A stretch of DNA of 64,000 nt from a phage. This document shows, piece by piece, positions 4,931-55,123 of the stretch. A model generated the notes under the pieces. It searched no databases. It saw only the letters and a program-made list of their open reading frames with translations, and was not told the origin of the DNA. How positions within the stretch are numbered: the first letter of the stretch is position 1; each line of letters begins with the position of its first letter. Where the stretch lies: the NCBI GenBank assembly GCA_025677605.1, contig GCA_025677605.1_4110.1; one strand, written 5' to 3'. Position numbers and translations under genes: made by a program.

Positions 4931-5480
4931 TTAATTCCTCCAATAATTCTTCTTGTGTTTCAGTACTTTCATTGTATAAATTATTGAAAGCGGAACACTC
5001 CCCACTACCAAGTTGCATTGATAGTTGATATACAAAATCAGCTTTAGCTATCATATCATAACCAGGAAGCAACGACAACTGGAAAAGATATGCTTCTCGC
5101 TCTTCTGGATTTTGTAGCTCAGGTGCAATATGAAGATATTCTTCATCATCATAATAATCATCGTACAAATTTCTGACGATTAATTCGTTAGTTTCTTTGA
5201 GTTTATTCACAGTAAGACTACAATCAGAAACTGAACCCAAAAATTTACTCTCTCTGCCTGATGCCACATAAGAAGCATCAACTGACCATATATTTTTGGT
5301 TTTATGTTGAATGCAGTGTTGTATTTGGATATTAGCATAACGATACAAAGTACTGCAATCAAAAACTAATCGGTACATTGGATTGTTGAAGTAATGAAAA
5401 ATATTCTCTGTTCTTTTTTGTTCATCTAACTTATGAGTAAGTTCTTCTAGTACTTTAAAAATATCAATTAGTGTTTTCAT
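4908..5480 (-). CDS. FQ-motif family protein
   Basis: 190 aa; motif EAYLFQLSLL. Confidence 0.6.
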   Translation of the reverse strand: MKTLIDIFKVLEELTHKLDEQKRTENIFHYFNNPMYRLVFDCSTLYRYANIQIQHCIQHKTKNIWSVDASYVASGRESKFLGSVSDCSLTVNKLKETNELIVRNLYDDYYDDEEYLHIAPELQNPEEREAYLFQLSLLPGYDMIAKADFVYQLSMQLGSGECSAFNNLYNESTETQEELLEELNAFLKSL

Positions 5481-6018
5481 GTTCTTTTCTCGTTTGTGCG
5501 TAGTTTTTCAAGTCCTTGAGTAATACTACTAATTGATCATCAGTGAGTAATGATGCTGTTGCACTATATGACATATAATAATTATTGAGATTGAAATCAA
5601 ATTTATAGTTACGTGCTAAAGCTTCAATCGTAAGTGCATCAGTGATTAATTTATCGTGAGTTACAGAACTCTGGAAATTTTGTTCTTCTAAATTCTCAGT
5701 ACTGAACAACGCAATAGGATCATATGATGGTTCTTTGTAATCCACTGCCTCTTTCATTCGAGGATTACGTGAAATAAAAGCCCAAGAACTGTCATATGAA
5801 AAATCAACAACACAGTCTTCCTCATCACCTTCATGTGGGTAAACGCACAGAATAGTTTTATTTTCTTCTGTGAACATCTGCTGCGTTGCAATACCCTCTC
5901 CTGTGTATTCAATTTCATAATCGAAACCGATTCTTAATTTACGTCCCTGTGAATTACACGTTTCAAGAAGTTTTCCCAGTTCGTTGTAAATTTGTAAGAT
6001 TAATAGGTAATTGTCCAT
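5464..6018 (-). CDS. FQ-motif family protein
   Basis: start moved to ATG at 6016-6018 (MDNYLL) with RBS gaggat; ORF-track extension reads through the upstream terminator; motif EEQNFQSSVTH. Confidence 0.6.
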   Translation of the reverse strand: MDNYLLILQIYNELGKLLETCNSQGRKLRIGFDYEIEYTGEGIATQQMFTEENKTILCVYPHEGDEEDCVVDFSYDSSWAFISRNPRMKEAVDYKEPSYDPIALFSTENLEEQNFQSSVTHDKLITDALTIEALARNYKFDFNLNNYYMSYSATASLLTDDQLVVLLKDLKNYAQTRKEHENTN

Positions 6019-6054
6019 ATGATATCCTCGGTTAAATAATATTAAAATAATAGC

Positions 6055-6086
6055 AAAGAAAAAAGCCAGAGTCAATACCCTGGCTT
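6055..6086 (-). terminator. rho-independent terminator after MCP-like gene
   Basis: hairpin GCCAG...CTGGC followed by T-run on minus strand, directly downstream of the 6092 stop. Confidence 0.55.
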
Positions 6087-6091
6087 TAAAA

Positions 6092-7504
6092 TTATTTCAC
6101 GTTAAAAATCGAAGTGGCTTTTTGTAAAGCATGTACTTCAGACTGTTGATTGTCTACCATCATCATTGTGTCCTTGACATGCTCCGCATTTTGCTGTACT
6201 GAACGGTCCATCATATTAACACTCTCGGTAACCTGAAGGATTGCAATGCTTTGTTGTTCAGCCATTATAGCTAAATCATCAATGAACTGCAAGAGAGAAT
6301 CAACATTTTTTACAATAGAATCAATATCACTTGCAGTTTCGTTGATTTGTTCTATTCCTTGGTTGTTGTTTTTTACAGAGTTATCAACGATTTCTTTAAT
6401 TTCTTTACTACATGCATCACATTTCATTGCTAAGTTACGAACTTCCTGTGCAACAACAGAGAATCCACGTCCATGTTCACCCGCTTTAGCAGCCTCAATA
6501 CTGGCATTTAAAGAAAGAATATTAGTCTGGAAAGCAATAGTTTCTATATTTTTGAGTATAGCAACTATAGCATTAGAATCTTCTTTAATTCTATCCATCT
6601 GCTCTTTGCAATTATTAATACTTTCAATTGCATTAGTACTGGATTCTTTTGTAGTTTTAACCATACTTTTTGCAGTATTGGAGTTATCAGATGTATTTGC
6701 AGATGTAGCACTTAATTCTTCCATAGCAGCAGCGATTTGAGTAAGTGCCTGTCCTTGTGTTTCAGTTCTGAAAGCTAAATCATTACTTTTACTTTCGAGA
6801 TGATAGGAGTTGCTTTTCATTGACTGAACTGTAATTTGTACTTGTTCAATTGCCTCACGCATAGCTGATATTGTTTTACTAAAAGTCTGTGCAAATTCTG
6901 AGTTGAAATGATTATTTTGTATTTCTAAAGTAATATTGCCGTCTTCAGAATTCACCGAATGGGCAATTCGTTGAATTTCATCTGCTTCATTTGCATCTTT
7001 CTCCATAATATACGCAACGTACATCAGAACTATTGCCTGTACTACTACATATATTGCGTGCTCTATAATGTGCCATAACGAAATATGGTGAAAAGAAAAC
7101 ACGAATAATATTGGAATTCCAGCACCCTGTAACAATCCAAATAATAAATGATGTATAGCAATCAGTACTGAACCTGCTAATACACAACGCCAGTCACGCC
7201 ATACAATCAATAAACTTAAAAAGACAAAAACTGTAAAGTGCCATTCCACCATCCCTAAGCCAAGATGTATTAGTAACGCACTCCAGCACATCACATTTAT
7301 ACTTAACAACGTTCGAGTGAACGCATTACTTTCAACAAATAGTAAAGGAGTTAGCATTACTAATAATAAAACTGCACCGATTAGTGCAATAATAAAACTA
7401 CCATGAACAACACCGGAAACTAAAGTAACAGCAAATAAAGCCCCTATACAACATAGTACTAAATTATCGGCTTTTTTGCGTATATTTTCTAAATTACTTT
7501 TCAA
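6092..7504 (-). CDS. methyl-accepting chemotaxis protein-like (N-terminal multi-helix His-rich membrane domain, C-terminal MCP signalling domain)
   Basis: 470 aa; signalling-domain signature [37 protein letters not shown]; about 6 hydrophobic helices in first 170 aa. Confidence 0.8.
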
Positions 7505-50786: not shown

Positions 50787-50879
50787 TTTTAAATCCTCTT
50801 AATTATAGTGGGGAACTATTCCCCACCGGATAGAAAGTATTATACATTAATCTAATTACTTTGCAAGTACTTTTTTAAC

Positions 50880-51242
50880 TTATTCGTAAATCTTGCCACT
50901 GTCAGCCCATACCAGGAAACGAGGCATATTATCCCATGCATCTTGTTTTAAGTTTAAGCCGTGCAATACTTCGGTACTTTCCATCCCAGGCACTGGTTTA
51001 CTATACACCGCAAATAGTTCGCCCATGTACTGATAAGCCATCGTTAAATCACTGGCAATCATCTTGTGGATCATCGCATCAAGCATCACAGTAGCGGCGT
51101 ATTGTTCACGCTTAAGCGGCAACATTGCAATCAATTCCCGATAAGCTGATATATGAATCTTTACAGTCTCAGCCGGAAGATCTTTCATCTCTTCGCGAAA
51201 GTTAACCAGGTTAGCAATGATTTTAGTGATTTGAGTCGCCAT
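50880..51242 (-). CDS. hypothetical protein
   Basis: 120 aa; ATG 51240-51242. Confidence 0.5.
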   Translation of the reverse strand: MATQITKIIANLVNFREEMKDLPAETVKIHISAYRELIAMLPLKREQYAATVMLDAMIHKMIASDLTMAYQYMGELFAVYSKPVPGMESTEVLHGLNLKQDAWDNMPRFLVWADSGKIYE

Positions 51243-51534
51243 CGTTTTAATTCCTATTAAAGTGAGTTAGGAGCGTTTCCCCCGTCTCGATGTAAAACAT
51301 TATACGCCCTTAAACATAGTATGCAAGTACTTTCTACAAATACTTTTAAAATAGTTTTCTTTCTATATAGGAGTACTATCATTCAGTACTGAATCAATCC
51401 AGTGGTACAATTATTCAGTACTATACCCTTAAAACGGCCTCAATCGCGTTCTAACGCATTAATACACCTAAGCTATACATTTGCACCACTCCCAACAATC
51501 CAGGGCTTTACGGGCCGTTTAAACACCAGTACTG

Positions 51535-52044
51535 TTAAGAGTACTTTTTAAAATATTTTATTATTGTTTCCTTTGTAACTCCAAATTTTCTACCCAATGC
51601 AGTAGCACCATAAACGCGATCCCCTGGCTTATAATGTGTTATAATGTATTGTGTATCGTCGGCGGTCAAACGTGCCTTATCGTTATCATATCCCGTTAAA
51701 CGTGGTTTAACTAATCCAGAATCAAACGCATGTTTAACATTTTCGCTATTGGTTGCCCATTCCAACGCGGTGTAATGATTGTTCGCCTTTCCCTTTAAAT
51801 GATTAACTTGAACTATCTTATAGTGAGTTTTTGCAGCCCATGCGATTTGTTCCGCAGTAGGCGGTGATAGATAGTTATTAGCAACCAATCTATGAACAAA
51901 ATGATCCCCATCGTTTAACGATACTCTTTGATAACCTTTTTCGGTTATACGTGGTTTAAGATTGGTTGTAGTGCCAATCTTTCTAACATCCCCATACTCG
52001 CTAACTTCATATAAATTATTTTCTTTTAGTACCTTCCATTGCAT
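51535..52044 (-). CDS. HNH homing endonuclease
   Basis: 169 aa; LYEVSEYGDVRK...KGYQRVSL...HFVHRLVANNY typical of phage HNH endonucleases. Confidence 0.75.
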   Translation of the reverse strand: MQWKVLKENNLYEVSEYGDVRKIGTTTNLKPRITEKGYQRVSLNDGDHFVHRLVANNYLSPPTAEQIAWAAKTHYKIVQVNHLKGKANNHYTALEWATNSENVKHAFDSGLVKPRLTGYDNDKARLTADDTQYIITHYKPGDRVYGATALGRKFGVTKETIIKYFKKYS

Positions 52045-52118
52045 ACACGATCCCCTGATGTAACATTTATTTGATACTATTATATCATAAAAATATGTTC
52101 CATCTCATAAAATAGTAC

Positions 52119-52146
52119 TTGCATTCTGTACGGCATAGCGTATAAT
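52119..52146 (+). promoter_or_regulatory. plus-strand sigma70-like promoter
   Basis: TTGCAT, 16 nt spacer, TATAAT, then TACTACATAAG...CTAACCCACAGGGTGC element. Confidence 0.45.
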
Positions 52147-52200
52147 TACTACATAAGCCGGAAACAAGGCACTAACCCACAGGGTGCCGAGATCCGCCCA
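52147..52200 (+). repeat. conserved noncoding element, copy 7 (plus orientation)
   Basis: tactacataagccggaaacaaggcactaacccacagggtgccgagatccgcc. Confidence 0.45.
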
Positions 52201-52334
52201 AAATTCATATAATTTAAAAAGGATACACTCCCGCACCCTAGCAGGTCAAAGCACTTTCTCAGTACTGAATCATAGTACCATAGTACGCCCCAGGATGGCA
52301 AGCAAATTAATTAAAACTTTTTACACTTAGGCTA

Positions 52335-52363
52335 TTGCTTTTATAATTCAGTACTGCTATAAT
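52335..52363 (+). promoter_or_regulatory. plus-strand sigma70-like promoter
   Basis: TTGCTT, 17 nt spacer, TATAAT. Confidence 0.4.
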
Positions 52364-52374
52364 TATTTCATCAA

Positions 52375-52415
52375 GTCGAGAAAGACTCTAGCCCACCGGG
52401 TGCATAGTTACGCCC
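52375..52415 (+). repeat. conserved noncoding element, copy 8 (plus orientation)
   Basis: ctctagcccaccgggtgcatagttacgcc. Confidence 0.45.
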
Positions 52416-52587
52416 AAAATTCAGTACTAGATTATTTTTAAAAATATTCATCCAGGCGGTTGACATACCCCGCTAAAACTGGGATAATGTTTCCAGATTC
52501 AGAAAAATCTAACTCCAGATACTGCGGGGAAACCATCCCCACGCGGTAGGGGAACTATTGGAAAAAACAAAATAAAAATTTTGATTT

Positions 52588-52765
52588 AGCCGTCTATACA
52601 TCCAGACGTGTAACCATCTAGCCATCTAGCCGTCCAAACGTCTAGCAGTACAGCCATCTAGAAATCTAGCCATCTAGAAATCTAGCCATCCAGCCGTCTA
52701 GAGGGATAGCCATCTTTACTTCCAGACTTCTGGAGGGCTAGACATCTCTACGTCCAAAATCCACC
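52588..52765. repeat. CTAG-rich short direct repeat array
   Basis: about a dozen CTAG-containing 8-12 bp units (ccatctagcc, cgtctag, gaaatctagcc) within about 180 bp; no ORF. Confidence 0.6.
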
Positions 52766-53341
52766 CAGGGTTACTACGCCCAAAATCCGTCAGTACTATA
52801 CCATAGATCTATCTTTAAGAAGGGAGTATTCAGTACTGCCATCATAGTCCTCACTATGTTACCCTAGGAGGATGAAGACTATCATGTAGTACTGAATACT
52901 TTTAAGGGGAATATCATCACATTGCGTGATGCATTATATATTAGATTAATATCAGTACTGCTACCATTCTGTTAATAACAGTACTGTTTATATTACGAAA
53001 AAAGAGGTTGTCAAAGATGAACCACTGCATAGGAGGATTCAATCTCTTCTGTACTGTCTCACGACAGGAGGGTTAAGGCTCTGAATTGTTTGCGGCAATT
53101 CATCACTCTATGTAGAACATTATACAGTACTGAATCATAATGTCAATAGATTTCTTCCATTATTCAGTACTGAAAACATATCTTCTGTATCTCTTCAAAA
53201 CTCATTATATCCCACTAATCCTATATGTCCCAATGTAAATTTCAACTTTCGAAGATCCAACTTTTATTTCATAGGTACTCCAAAATTTTTACGATCCAGA
53301 TTTACGATGGAGTACTAACCAACTTTTTGCTGGAGCCTCAA

Positions 53342-53400
53342 GGGGTATTCGGAATTTTCCCCAATGGGTATTCGGGATTTTTGACGAAGGGTAAATTGAA
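53342..53400. repeat. tandem direct repeat GGGTATTCGGAATTTT
   Basis: two adjacent near-identical 18-20 bp units. Confidence 0.5.
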
Positions 53401-53590
53401 CTTTTTTGAATAGGTGATTGGGAGTTTTCAGTACTGGTCATTCCGTGATTACTTTTGATTGGAAATGATTTGTTTTGCAATTGTTCAGTACTGTAAAATT
53501 ATGTAAATTTTGGGCGACTTCATTTGCCTACTTAGTGGGATATCAGTACTGAATCATTCCTGCACTCTAGTACTCAATACTCTTCACTAC

Positions 53591-53653
53591 AATGATTATA
53601 AATGATTACTTAAATGTTTATATATGATTACTTATGACTACCTATGATTACGG
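53591..53653. repeat. ATGATTAC iteron-like repeats
   Basis: 5 copies of ATGATTA(C/T) in 63 bp. Confidence 0.55.
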
Positions 53654-53776
53654 GGTTTAGCCTGGGGAGAATCCTAGTGATCGCATTTGTCCAGGCTGAA
53701 TTTTAACATATGCAACATATGTTAAAGCCTGTATAATGCTTGCACTACGGAGCTTCCCCTAGCTATATGTGTTTAA

Positions 53777-53974
53777 TTACTTCCTATATATAAGCATTAA
53801 GATATAGTAGTACTGATTGTACTGTACATTCTCTAGAACAGGAGAAGGGTCTATTGCTATATTAGTACATTTATTAAATTCATATCGAGTCATTGGTAGA
53901 GGGATTAGAGCGTTAATCCATACTTGTTCATTCTCTTTGAGTTTACTTATATAGAATTCTTTATGGTCATTCAT
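53777..53974 (-). CDS. YKEFY-family small protein
   Basis: start moved to MNDHKEFYISKL; C-terminal LMLIYRK. Confidence 0.5.
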   Translation of the reverse strand: MNDHKEFYISKLKENEQVWINALIPLPMTRYEFNKCTNIAIDPSPVLENVQYNQYYYILMLIYRK

Positions 53975-53975
53975 A

Positions 53976-54167
53976 TTAGTGTCTGTATATAAGTAATAGT
54001 AAGAATACGTACTGCACCTGTTCATCTTTAGTATTGAGTACTGTACGTATTGCGTCCTTAAACAAGAATATAGAACTTGGGTCATGGGAATTTAAAGGGA
54101 TTACGGGGACGGCATCTTTGTAGTTCTCTTTAACAAATTGTTTATAGTATTCTTTATAATTATCCAT
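53976..54167 (-). CDS. YKEFY-family small protein
   Basis: 63 aa MDNYKEYYKQF...LLLLIYRH. Confidence 0.55.
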   Translation of the reverse strand: MDNYKEYYKQFVKENYKDAVPVIPLNSHDPSSIFLFKDAIRTVLNTKDEQVQYVFLLLLIYRH

Positions 54168-54360
54168 AGATATATACTAGCAACATTAGGTTAGAGTATA
54201 GTGCTTTAGTGTCATCTTGTTCTAGAGCTTCAATTGAGTTCGTTGTAGCTTTCCTAAAGCCCATTTTTGCGTATGCACTTTTTGGATTAACGGGGGCGGC
54301 GGCTTCGCACCAGATTCTTTCGGTGCTTGATAGTTTACTCATATAGAATTCTTTATACAT
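54160..54360 (-). CDS. YKEFY-family small protein
   Basis: 66 aa MYKEFYMSKL... Confidence 0.55.
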   Translation of the reverse strand: MYKEFYMSKLSSTERIWCEAAAPVNPKSAYAKMGFRKATTNSIEALEQDDTKALYSNLMLLVYIYG

Positions 54361-54361
54361 A

Positions 54362-54544
54362 TTAGTACCTGAATATTAGCATTGTTATGTAGTACAGCAT
54401 ATATGGATTGTCATCGTATATTAGGGTGTACTTAGTACATTGTTGGAACATTATCTTTGCGTGATCTTTTATTCCTATTGGTTCTGTTGGTACAAGGTGT
54501 TGGAGATGCATTGGGAGATGATCTTTATAAAATTCTTTATACAT
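54362..54544 (-). CDS. YKEFY-family small protein
   Basis: 60 aa MYKEFYKDHLP...MLIFRY. Confidence 0.55.
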   Translation of the reverse strand: MYKEFYKDHLPMHLQHLVPTEPIGIKDHAKIMFQQCTKYTLIYDDNPYMLYYITMLIFRY

Positions 54545-54552
54545 ATTAGTCC

Positions 54553-54741
54553 TTAGTACTGGAACGCGAGATACAGAGTGTGGTACAGTTGCACTTGAGA
54601 ATTGTTTTCATTAAGTACTTGTTCAGTACATGTGCGGAAGTAATCAGCTTCGTATATACAGTTAATATCGCGAGGTTCATCTTCTAATAGATTGCCTTGT
54701 AGAAACTTTGGTAGTTCTTTTATGTAGTATTCTTTATGCAT
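54553..54741 (-). CDS. YKEFY-family small protein
   Basis: 62 aa MHKEYYIKELP...YLAFQY. Confidence 0.55.
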   Translation of the reverse strand: MHKEYYIKELPKFLQGNLLEDEPRDINCIYEADYFRTCTEQVLNENNSQVQLYHTLYLAFQY

Positions 54742-54750
54742 ATGATTTCC

Positions 54751-54939
54751 TTAGTACACGAATGCGAGGTACAGGGTGTGGTACAGTACTCGATGATAGC
54801 TATCATAATCTTGTATACATGCTTTAGTGCACATAGTAAAGTACTTTTTATCGTTTTGTGCATTGATACCGCGAGGTTTATCTAATAGATTAGTTATGAG
54901 GTACATTGGGAAATATTTTGTGTAGTATTCTTTGTGCAT
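54751..54939 (-). CDS. YKEFY-family small protein
   Basis: 62 aa MHKEYYTKYFP...YLAFVY. Confidence 0.55.
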   Translation of the reverse strand: MHKEYYTKYFPMYLITNLLDKPRGINAQNDKKYFTMCTKACIQDYDSYHRVLYHTLYLAFVY

Positions 54940-54940
54940 A

Positions 54941-55123
54941 TTAGTACCTGTATATAAGTGTTAGTACATTGTACAAGTTATAGATATCATCTTCATTTAT
55001 TGCAGATTCTGTTTGATATCGGTAGAATATAGTTTGGCTTTTATCTTTGAAATCTACAGGTTTTTGGGGAATAAGTTTTTGGAGATCTATTGTAAGTTTA
55101 CTTACGTAGTATTCTTTATACAT
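54941..55123 (-). CDS. YKEFY-family small protein
   Basis: start moved to MYKEYYVSKL (ATG 55121-55123). Confidence 0.5.
   Translation of the reverse strand: MYKEYYVSKLTIDLQKLIPQKPVDFKDKSQTIFYRYQTESAINEDDIYNLYNVLTLIYRY

What the first reader, a model, noticed from the sequence alone, without database searches (positions are those of the whole stretch)
51535..52044. HNH homing endonuclease at the edge of the noncoding hub
The product has clear HNH-family signatures (YEVSEYGDVRK...GYQRVSL...VHRLVA). Its position next to the repeat-rich 1.7 kb noncoding region is typical of mobile endonuclease insertions near regulatory regions or origins.
Basis: established knowledge. Interest (0 to 1): 0.4.

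Follow-up and report, generated by a model that had tools for sequence, protein, structure and literature searches.

The report
Mobile I-HmuI-like HNH endonuclease cassette
This is a real, self-contained mobile gene in a jumbo E. coli phage that encodes an I-HmuI-type "HNH" DNA-cutting enzyme and has recently copied itself into a conserved promoter near the end of the phage chromosome; this is an ordinary kind of selfish element, except that one hallmark catalytic residue is missing.

Summary
The ORF at 51535-52044 (minus strand, 169 aa) is real. It is a full-length relative of the SPO1 homing nickase I-HmuI: an N-terminal NUMOD4 domain, a ββα-metal core and a C-terminal helix-turn-helix. The window comes from an Asteriusvirus-like E. 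coli jumbo phage (nearest relative A4).

The gene sits in a 610-bp cassette (51527-52136) with its own promoter and ribosome-binding site. The cassette replaces about 52 bp, including the -35 box of a conserved promoter, that is intact in all 37 Asteriusvirus records.

The same cassette is 99.2-100% identical on five other contigs. Their flanks are only 79-92% identical to the window. The cassette-free phage A4 matches the window's flanks at 92-99.7%. Just upstream of the gene (52156-52197) the window carries the HNH+ phages' allele, then switches to the A4 allele. This is the signature of homing with one-sided co-conversion.

One caveat applies. Pfam finds only NUMOD4, not HNH_3. The central Asn of the H-N-H motif is Ala (A93), where 178 of 180 homologues have Asn. 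There are two further unique changes in the core. Nuclease activity is therefore inferred, not certain.

The site lies about 1.5 kb from the inferred genome terminus. This is an ordinary finding with a small twist.

The parts
51535..52044 (-). Free-standing I-HmuI-like endonuclease gene (169 aa; ATG at 52044-52042, stop at 51537-51535)
   Evidence: ORF list; PHROG 59; NUMOD4; I-HmuI as the only PDB match by sequence, profile and fold
51913..52044 (-).
   Evidence: Pfam PF07463 E 4.7e-7, 30.4 bits against GA 23.4; predicted strands 3-5, 12-15, 20-22, 39-43 and 46-49
51718..51810 (-). ββα-metal catalytic core (aa 79-109): N81-H82 (general base), the HLKG-K loop, A93 in place of the central Asn (codon GCG at 51766-51768), and N102 (metal ligand)
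   Evidence: Alignment to I-HmuI D74-H75/N87/N96; AF2 strands 79-82 and 94-97 and helix 99-109; column statistics; in-silico reversion
51541..51663 (-). C-terminal three-helix (helix-turn-helix type) DNA-binding domain (aa 128-168)
   Evidence: AF2 helices 128-137, 147-154 and 158-168; the family profile aligns to I-HmuI through residue 161; weak HTH Pfam hits in the closest relatives
51527..52136 (.). Mobile cassette (610 bp): gene, promoter and RBS. It is absent from A4, 121Q, TH47, vB_Ec-M-J, fEgEco12 and all other Asteriusvirus records, where about 52 bp (...GTTAAATTATTTTCAATTATTTTGTTTTTAGCTATTGACTCAGTACTAAAAA) sit instead
   Evidence: The cassette is 99.2-100% identical on L005 and L020-L023 while their flanks are 79-92% identical
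52079..52108 (-). The cassette's own sigma70-like promoter: ATGAGA, 18-nt spacer, TATAAT with extended -10 TG (52087-52086). The Shine-Dalgarno AGGGGA lies at 52056-52051, 6 nt before the ATG
   Evidence: Promoter scan; sequence read on the minus strand. Consensus match only; function not shown
52137..52197 (.). Co-converted flank. At 16 of 17 informative sites the window carries the allele of the other HNH+ phages rather than that of its closest backbone relative A4. From 52271 on it is A4-like (8 of 8 sites up to 52534). This is the candidate location of the recognition/cleavage site
   Evidence: Site-by-site comparison; segment identities
51486..51526 (.). Left junction. The window is A4-like at 7 of 8 informative sites up to 51507, so the left crossover lies within 20 bp of the cassette
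52119..52146 (+). Remnant of the conserved plus-strand promoter into which the cassette is inserted. The -10 TATAAT (52141-52146) is retained. The -35 is TTGACT in relatives and TTGCAT here, supplied by the cassette at the same 16-nt spacing

Best explanation
The ORF encodes a free-standing homing endonuclease of the I-HmuI type: a monomer with NUMOD4 beta-sheet, ββα-metal nuclease core and C-terminal HTH. By analogy with I-HmuI it is most likely a site-specific nickase.

The gene travels as a 610-bp cassette with its own extended -10 promoter and RBS. The cassette is lodged in a highly conserved promoter about 1.5 kb from the left physical end of an Asteriusvirus-like jumbo phage genome, inside the roughly 21-kb direct terminal repeat.

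Proposed mechanism (inferred). In a mixed infection the enzyme is made early. It nicks or cuts cassette-free relatives in or next to the conserved promoter/leader element just upstream of the gene (equivalent to window 52137-52200). Recombinational repair from the cassette-bearing genome then copies the cassette, plus 61-134 bp of that flank, into the recipient and deletes the about 52 bp that were there.

Shown here: family membership by full-length homology and fold; the insertion/absence polymorphism; identical junctions; near-identical cassettes in at least three backbones; and one-sided co-conversion.

Inferred, not shown: cleavage activity, nick versus double-strand cut, the position of the target, and early expression.
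For: Family and architecture:
- PHROG 59 HNH endonuclease, E 8.6e-27 over aa 1-166; NUMOD4 above its cut-off.
- I-HmuI (1u3e) is the only PDB hit by sequence (E 1.6e-4), by family profile (E 1.8e-37, positions 4-167 against residues 1-161) and by fold (AF2 pLDDT 92.6; Foldseek E 4e-8, prob 1.00).
- The general-base His82 and the metal-ligand Asn102 are conserved. Asn81 is the family consensus (173 of 180).

Insertion:
- Window 51527-52136 replaces about 52 bp that are nearly invariant in A4, 121Q, TH47 and vB_Ec-M-J.
- 37 records span the empty site, and all 37 begin matching exactly at 52137.
- No record in the phage collection has the gene. The best tblastn hits are 45-46% identical and are not at this junction: TH47's copy lies about 4.5 kb away, and KP13-7's lies in the analogous place in another genus.

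Lateral transfer:
- The cassette is 99.2-99.8% identical on L005, L020, L022 and L023, whose flanks are 79-92% identical to the window.
- Cassette-free A4 is 92-99.7% identical in the same flanks.
- 16 of 17 informative sites in 52156-52197 carry the HNH+ allele, then 8 of 8 are A4-like. The left flank is A4-like at 7 of 8 sites.
- All copies share A93, K84 and the 1-aa deletion, so the element moved after acquiring them.

Expression signals: own promoter and SD.
Against: - Pfam HNH_3 is not detected even at E<=10, although the six closest relatives (45-49% identical) all pass its gathering score.
- The central Asn of the H-N-H motif (I-HmuI Asn87, proposed to hydrogen-bond the general-base His; PMC2816704) is Ala here. 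It is Asn in 178 of 180 homologues.
- The equivalent N311A mutant of HpyAV had under 0.1% activity (PMC2816704).
- Two more changes unique among the 180 homologues lie in the hairpin after the catalytic His: D84K and a 1-residue deletion. In-silico reversion of all three restores HNH_3 to 31.7 bits.
- Transfer between phages with 80-95% identical flanks could occur by ordinary homologous recombination without any nuclease.
- No biochemical, transcript or cross data exist.
Confidence: 0.7

Rival explanations
1. The gene is a catalytically crippled or decaying homing endonuclease. It descends from an active I-HmuI-like enzyme, but the loss of the central Asn and the remodelled hairpin have abolished or greatly reduced cleavage. 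The cassette persists and spreads passively, by ordinary recombination between co-infecting jumbo phages.
For: - A93 sits where 178 of 180 homologues have Asn. D84K and a 1-aa deletion are also unique.
- There is no Pfam HNH_3 hit. Reversion of the three changes restores it.
- N-to-A at the equivalent residue abolishes HpyAV activity (PMC2816704). N854A lowers the residual HNH activity of Cas9 H840A (PMC10063541).
Against: - The ORF is intact on all six contigs, with at most one amino-acid difference.
- The derived motif is shared by copies in at least three backbones, so the spread came after the substitutions.
- The sharp cassette edges and one-sided co-conversion tract are what break-initiated repair produces.
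- The general base and both metal-ligand positions are kept. The fold is predicted with pLDDT of about 90-96 across the core.
Confidence: 0.2
2. The protein is a domesticated, nuclease-dead, sequence-specific DNA-binding protein. Using its NUMOD4 and HTH domains, it regulates the conserved promoters or leader elements of the terminal noncoding region next to which it is encoded.
For: - The catalytic motif is degenerate while the DNA-binding modules are intact.
- The gene sits directly beside, and has rebuilt the -35 box of, a promoter conserved across the genus.
Against: - It is absent from all 37 Asteriusvirus records in the phage collection, which keep the same promoter region, so it provides no conserved regulatory function.
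- Its distribution is that of a selfish element.
- His82, Asn81 and Asn102 are retained, with no sign of relaxed constraint.
Confidence: 0.06
3. The HNH protein takes part in forming the genome ends or in packaging, like the HNH proteins that assist terminases in HK97-like phages. This would explain its position about 1.5 kb from the physical terminus.
For: The inferred terminus lies at window 53532, 1,488 bp from the start codon. A 46%-identical homologue occupies the analogous position in Klebsiella phage KP13-7.
Against: - Phages with experimentally confirmed termini and terminal repeats of about 21 kb (fEgEco12; also vB_Ec-M-J) lack the gene.
- It is not next to a terminase gene.
- It belongs to the I-HmuI/NUMOD4 family, not to the family of terminase-associated HNH proteins that carry a zinc-binding site (PMC3592412 abstract).
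Confidence: 0.02

Closest known systems
I-HmuI (Bacillus phage SPO1; PDB 1U3E), with I-HmuII, I-BasI and I-TwoI: monomeric HNH nicking homing endonucleases
   Same: Same size (169 against 174 aa) and the same domain order: NUMOD4 beta-sheet, ββα-metal core, C-terminal HTH. It is the only PDB match by sequence, profile and fold. [quoted passage not shown]
   Different: [quoted passage not shown] This gene is free-standing in an intergenic promoter, and Rfam finds no intron. Fold-aligned sequence identity is only 23%. The central Asn (I-HmuI N87) is Ala here, D74 is Asn (the norm for this subfamily), and the hairpin after the catalytic His is one residue shorter and reads K where relatives have D. 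A subfamily-specific insert (PPTAEQIAWAAKTHYK) precedes strand 1.
Free-standing NUMOD4-HNH_3 endonuclease genes of Rak2-like jumbo phages (TH47 copy = P0036; Klebsiella phage KP13-7 UYL05216.1; metagenomic P0002 and P0033-P0035)
   Same: These are the closest relatives (44-49% identity). They share the subfamily insert, are free-standing among small early-type genes and are patchily distributed. The KP13-7 copy also lies at the boundary between the terminal noncoding leader and the first genes.
   Different: All of them keep the canonical xNLEW central Asn and HxDGNK hairpin, and all pass Pfam HNH_3. The TH47 copy is inserted about 4.5 kb away (equivalent to window 47015/47021) and TH47 has the empty site here. 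KP13-7's cassette replaces about 750 bp, including Muenster genes 001-002, rather than sitting at the same junction.
Free-standing homing endonucleases of T-even phages (for example MobE, SegG, I-TevIII-like), which spread by intronless homing or marker exclusion
   Same: An intergenic, promoter-carrying endonuclease cassette that is present or absent among close relatives and is accompanied by co-conversion of adjacent markers (review PMC2988022, listed; the comparison is from general knowledge).
   Different: Different phage group, and a target in a noncoding promoter/leader rather than between or within conserved protein genes. No cross data exist for this element.

Membership tests
I-HmuI-like NUMOD4/HNH_3 homing endonucleases | N-terminal NUMOD4 motif | tested here: met
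   Pfam PF07463, aa 1-44, 30.4 bits against GA 23.4, E 4.7e-7
I-HmuI-like NUMOD4/HNH_3 homing endonucleases | Pfam HNH_3 (PF13392) domain above the gathering score | tested here: not met
   There is no HNH_3 match even at E<=10. A93N alone gives 15.2 bits. A93N + K84D + 1-aa insertion gives 31.7 bits against GA 24.8. The six closest relatives all pass.
I-HmuI-like NUMOD4/HNH_3 homing endonucleases | Full-length homology and shared fold with I-HmuI (ββα-metal core plus C-terminal HTH) | tested here: met
   Family profile against PDB: only 1u3e, E 1.8e-37, 4-167 against 1-161. AF2 pLDDT 92.6 with strands 79-82 and 94-97 and helix 99-109. Foldseek 1u3e E 4e-8, prob 1.00, TM 0.51. PHROG 59 at 8.6e-27.
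HNH (ββα-Me) nucleases | General-base His (I-HmuI H75, ColE9 H103) | tested here: met
   H82 aligns to H75; this column is His in 179 of 180 homologues
HNH (ββα-Me) nucleases | Central Asn of H-N-H (I-HmuI N87, ColE9 N118) | tested here: not met
   The residue is A93 (codon GCG). It is Asn in 178 of 180 homologues; the only exceptions are the 99%-identical twin P0001 (Ala) and P0143 (His). Role of the residue and the N311A phenotype: PMC2816704.
HNH (ββα-Me) nucleases | Metal-ligand residues (I-HmuI D74 and N96) | tested here: met
   N102 aligns to N96 and is Asn in 179 of 180. Position 81 is Asn, the consensus of this subfamily (173 of 180), where I-HmuI has Asp.
Homing endonuclease genes (functional definition) | Presence/absence polymorphism at a defined site, with lateral transfer and flank co-conversion | tested here: met
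   empty site in 37 records; 99.2-100% identical cassette in different backbones; one-sided co-conversion
Homing endonuclease genes (functional definition) | Site-specific cleavage or nicking of the cassette-less allele | not testable with these tools
   Needs purified protein or phage crosses
Intron- or intein-encoded endonucleases | Embedded in a self-splicing intron or intein | tested here: not met
   The gene is intergenic. Rfam at E<=1 gives no intron family in 51000-54200. The cassette replaces noncoding promoter DNA.
Terminase-associated HNH proteins (HK97 gp74 type) | Conserved partner of the terminase, present in all relatives with the same type of genome ends | tested here: not met
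   Absent from fEgEco12 and vB_Ec-M-J, which have defined termini. It belongs to a different HNH subfamily.

The most novel reading that the evidence does not exclude
The 'H-A-N' enzyme is either a fully active homing nickase or a nuclease-dead protein that still spreads. If active, it is a natural demonstration that the central Asn of the HNH motif is dispensable in I-HmuI-type enzymes. If dead, it has been retained as a sequence-specific binder of the conserved terminal promoter/leader element of Rak2-like jumbo phages. In either case, its target would be a roughly 50-nt noncoding element conserved at about 90% identity across phage genera, only about 1.4 kb from the genome end.
Probability: 0.15. 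Interest if true: 0.45.

Novelty: new member of a known kind. Interest (0 to 1): 0.25.

Why it matters
For annotation, the gene can be named with confidence as a free-standing I-HmuI-like (NUMOD4) HNH-family homing endonuclease gene, with a note that its motif is atypical. For jumbo-phage biology, it is a well-documented recent homing-type event inside the long terminal repeat. It also marks a conserved promoter/leader element as a probable endonuclease target. If the enzyme is active despite lacking the central Asn, it would be a useful natural variant for studying HNH catalysis and a possible new nicking specificity. None of this changes current understanding; it is an ordinary selfish element.

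Tried and rejected
- Pfam and NCBIfam gave no HNH model. NCBIfam returned only a spurious 15-bit hit to an intein-containing radical-SAM model whose cut-off is 700.
- tblastn of the protein against the whole window found no paralogue.
- blastn of the gene against 50,697 phage records found only a 148-nt, 70%-identical stretch in TH47, so no donor phage is identifiable in that collection.
- IMG/VR protein-pattern scan: only 33-41% relatives.
- Exact 33-mer scans of IMG/VR and the JGI metagenomes: nothing.
- Rfam on 51000-54200 found no intron or known RNA; the only hit was a chance miRNA match at E 0.95.
- RNAalifold on the conserved leader next to the cassette, on both strands, gave no supported structure: 5-7 pairs and essentially no covariation.
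- The worry that Asn81 (Asp in I-HmuI) is a defect was dropped, because Asn is the consensus of this subfamily.
- A literature search for ColE9 N118A returned only a paper on a different residue in F-CphI, which is not relevant.
- Terminase-helper and chance-ORF readings were rejected; see the rival explanations.

Full report
**Observation.** The window is from an Asteriusvirus-like jumbo coliphage. A 4-kb query around the finding matches Escherichia phage A4 (94%), 121Q, PBECO4, G17 and about 35 other genomes of roughly 350 kb. To its right, 52045-53776 has no ORF above 63 aa and contains several tandem-repeat arrays.

**What the protein is.**
- Pfam reports only NUMOD4 (aa 1-44, 30.4 bits against a cut-off of 23.4) and no HNH_3, even at E<=10. 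NCBIfam gives nothing meaningful.
- PHROG 59 ('HNH endonuclease') matches aa 1-166 at E 8.6e-27.
- The only PDB relative is the SPO1 homing nickase I-HmuI (1u3e): E 1.6e-4 with the single sequence, and E 1.8e-37 over essentially the full length with a 32-sequence family profile.
- An AlphaFold2 model (pLDDT 92.6) shows an N-terminal beta-sheet, a ββα unit (strands 79-82 and 94-97, helix 99-109) and a C-terminal three-helix bundle. Its only significant Foldseek hit in the PDB is again 1u3e (E 4e-8, prob 1.00).
- HMMER against 1.84 billion cluster representatives finds 14,727 relatives at E<=0.001 but only five at E<=1e-30.
- The nearest relatives (44-49% identity) form a small subclade with a characteristic insert (xPPTxEQxxWAxxTxYK). 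It includes copies in Asteriusvirus TH47 and Alcyoneusvirus KP13-7.

**The catalytic motif is atypical.** Aligned to I-HmuI, the core VDH75...N87L...N96 reads VNH82...A93L...N102 here. I tabulated 180 homologues at these positions:

| Position | Residue here | In 180 homologues |
|---|---|---|
| 81 | Asn | Asn in 173 (subfamily norm, not a defect) |
| 82 | His | His in 179 |
| 84 | Lys | Asp in 144, Asn in 28; Lys only in the twin P0001 |
| 93 | Ala | Asn in 178; Ala only in the 99%-identical twin P0001, His in P0143 |
| 102 | Asn | Asn in 179 |

- The hairpin after His82 is also one residue shorter (HLKG-K against HxDGNK).
- Position 93 corresponds to I-HmuI Asn87 and ColE9 Asn118, the central 'N' of H-N-H. 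It is proposed to hydrogen-bond the general-base His. The equivalent N311A mutant of HpyAV has under 0.1% activity (PMC2816704).
- Reverting the changes in silico explains the Pfam failure. A93N alone gives 15.2 bits. A93N + K84D + a one-residue insertion gives 31.7 bits (GA 24.8). All six closest relatives pass HNH_3.

The protein is therefore an evolutionary member of the I-HmuI family, but it fails the motif-level definition of 'HNH' at one of three positions.

**It is an insertion.**
- Against A4, the flanks align at 97.7% (50796-51524) and 91.3% (52137-54158). The stretch between them has no counterpart, and A4 has about 52-54 bp there instead.
- The same empty site is found in 121Q, TH47, vB_Ec-M-J and fEgEco12. 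The replaced segment is almost invariant among the four aligned genomes: GTTAAATTATTTTCAATTATTTTGTTTTTAG(C/G)TATTGACT...AAAAA. This is an AT-rich upstream region and the -35 box of a TTGACT-16-TATAAT promoter on the plus strand.
- 37 records span the empty site, and all 37 start matching the window exactly at 52137.
- No record in the phage collection carries the gene.
- Refined against the other carriers, the cassette is 51527-52136 (610 bp).
- It brings an extended -10 promoter (52108-52079, minus strand) and an AGGGGA Shine-Dalgarno 6 nt before the ATG.
- It also supplies TTGCAT at the position of the lost -35 box.

**It has moved between phages.** The exact protein, or a one-residue variant, is encoded on five other public contigs. 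Identities to the window are:

| Contig(s) | Cassette identity | Flank identity |
|---|---|---|
| L021 | 100% | 100% (the same phage) |
| L020 (a 347,840-bp contig, GCA_045002695.1) and L022 | 99.8% | 84-92% |
| L005 and L023 | 99.2-99.8% | 79-90% |
| A4 (no cassette) | absent | 92-99.7% |

- L005's flank is closest to ph0011 (90%), which also has the empty site.
- I then took sites where A4 differs from all four divergent carriers. At these, the window carries the carriers' allele at 16 of 17 positions in 52156-52197, and then the A4 allele at 8 of 8 positions from 52271 to 52534.
- On the other side the window is A4-like at 7 of 8 sites up to 51507, within 20 bp of the cassette.

An A4-like genome thus acquired the cassette together with 61-134 bp of donor sequence on the side upstream of the gene. 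This is the pattern expected from break-initiated gene conversion (homing), and it hints that the cleavage site lies on that side. All copies share A93, K84 and the deletion, so the element spread after acquiring the atypical motif. That argues for retained activity but does not prove it, because ordinary recombination between co-infecting phages could also move the cassette.

**Context.**
- In records with defined ends, the empty site lies about 1.2-1.5 kb from position 1 and inside annotated direct terminal repeats: vB_Ec-M-J, 21,525 bp; Muenster, 20,030 bp.
- Its first bases (AGTAGGCAGAGGAAGTC) align to the reverse complement of window 53532-53516.
- The 'noncoding hub' is therefore the leader at the left physical end, and it spans the terminal-repeat boundary.
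- If this phage has the same end structure, the HNH gene starts 1,488 bp from the end, is the first ORF of the genome and is present in both repeat copies. That is an inference.
- In KP13-7, a different genus, a 46%-identical homologue occupies the analogous place and replaces about 750 bp, including Muenster genes 001-002.
- In TH47, a 45%-identical paralogue sits about 4.5 kb away, and TH47 has the empty site here.
- HNH genes are known to be variable accessories in this genus (PMC13070987).

**Rivals.**
- A crippled, passively spreading remnant (0.2) is the serious alternative; it rests on the motif defects.
- A domesticated regulator (0.06) and a role in packaging or end formation (0.02) are made unlikely by the gene's absence from every relative with the same promoter region and the same termini.
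- A chance ORF is excluded by the homology statistics.

**Verdict.** This is a free-standing I-HmuI-like HNH-family homing endonuclease cassette inserted into a conserved regulatory sequence at the edge of the terminal noncoding leader. The additions from this stage are:
- the exact cassette and target-site boundaries;
- direct comparative evidence for recent lateral transfer with one-sided co-conversion;
- the terminal-repeat context;
- the caveat that the catalytic motif lacks its central Asn, so activity needs testing.

It is a new member of a known kind, of modest interest.

Noticed in passing
whole window; for example 51383-51392, 52259-52268, 53164-53173, 53543-53552: The palindrome AGTACT, often extended to TCAGTACTGA, occurs 269 times in 64 kb against about 21.5 expected from base composition. 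TCAGTACTG has 54 matches against 0.66 in shuffles. Density is highest at 32-60 kb (19-29 per 4 kb) and is zero in the 20-24 kb and 28-32 kb bins. The HNH cassette contains three copies (51528-51533, 51540-51545, 52114-52119). Its function is unknown; it could be a phage promoter or regulator site, or be related to DNA modification.
   Followed up: partly
window about 53516-53532 (minus strand): This is the inferred physical left end of the genome and the boundary of the roughly 21-kb direct terminal repeat. The experimentally confirmed first bases of fEgEco12 align here. The 1.7-kb 'noncoding hub' therefore straddles the repeat boundary, and the repeat would run from 53532 towards about 32,000.
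   Followed up: partly
window 52138-52204 and 52342-52420 (plus strand): A duplicated module consists of a TATAAT promoter followed by a leader ending in CCCAC(A/C)GGGTGC..N..CGCCCAAAAT (2 matches against 0.01 expected). The first copy (about 52142-52189) is 88-94% identical in Klebsiella Alcyoneusvirus phages (RaK2, K64-1, KP13-7) and an Erwinia jumbo phage, far above their genome-wide similarity. It exists as two sharply different alleles among Asteriusviruses. RNAalifold gave no supported structure on either strand.
   Followed up: partly
window 52588-52756: Iteron-like tandem repeats with 8/16/32/40-bp periods, built on a CCATCTAG unit (about 11 copies), lie in the terminal leader. Further short tandem repeats lie at 53339-53393 and 53591-53651.
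   Followed up: no
window 53119-53146 (minus strand) and 52220-52239 (minus strand): A perfect-consensus sigma70 promoter (TTGACA-16-TATAAT) points leftwards from the hub. A terminator-like hairpin with a T-run lies about 900 nt downstream, just before the HNH cassette. This could be a roughly 0.9-kb noncoding transcript or a leader for the early genes.
   Followed up: no
window 53976-55186 and 55816-55995 (minus strand): A tandem array of at least 7 paralogous small ORFs (59-81 aa) lies just outside the inferred terminal repeat. Most begin M(Y/H)KE(F/Y)Y and end in ...L(I/V/A)(Y/F)x(Y/H). A4 and 121Q annotate similar arrays of hypothetical proteins of about 60 aa.
   Followed up: no
L003 (TH47) 6001-6552, equivalent to window 47015/47021; L004 (KP13-7) 5001-5528: Related HNH genes (45-46% identity) are inserted at other intergenic sites of the terminal-repeat gene array in TH47. 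In KP13-7 one sits at the analogous 'first gene after the terminal leader' position, in a different genus. This suggests that this end of Rak2-like genomes is a recurrent landing zone for the subfamily.
   Followed up: partly
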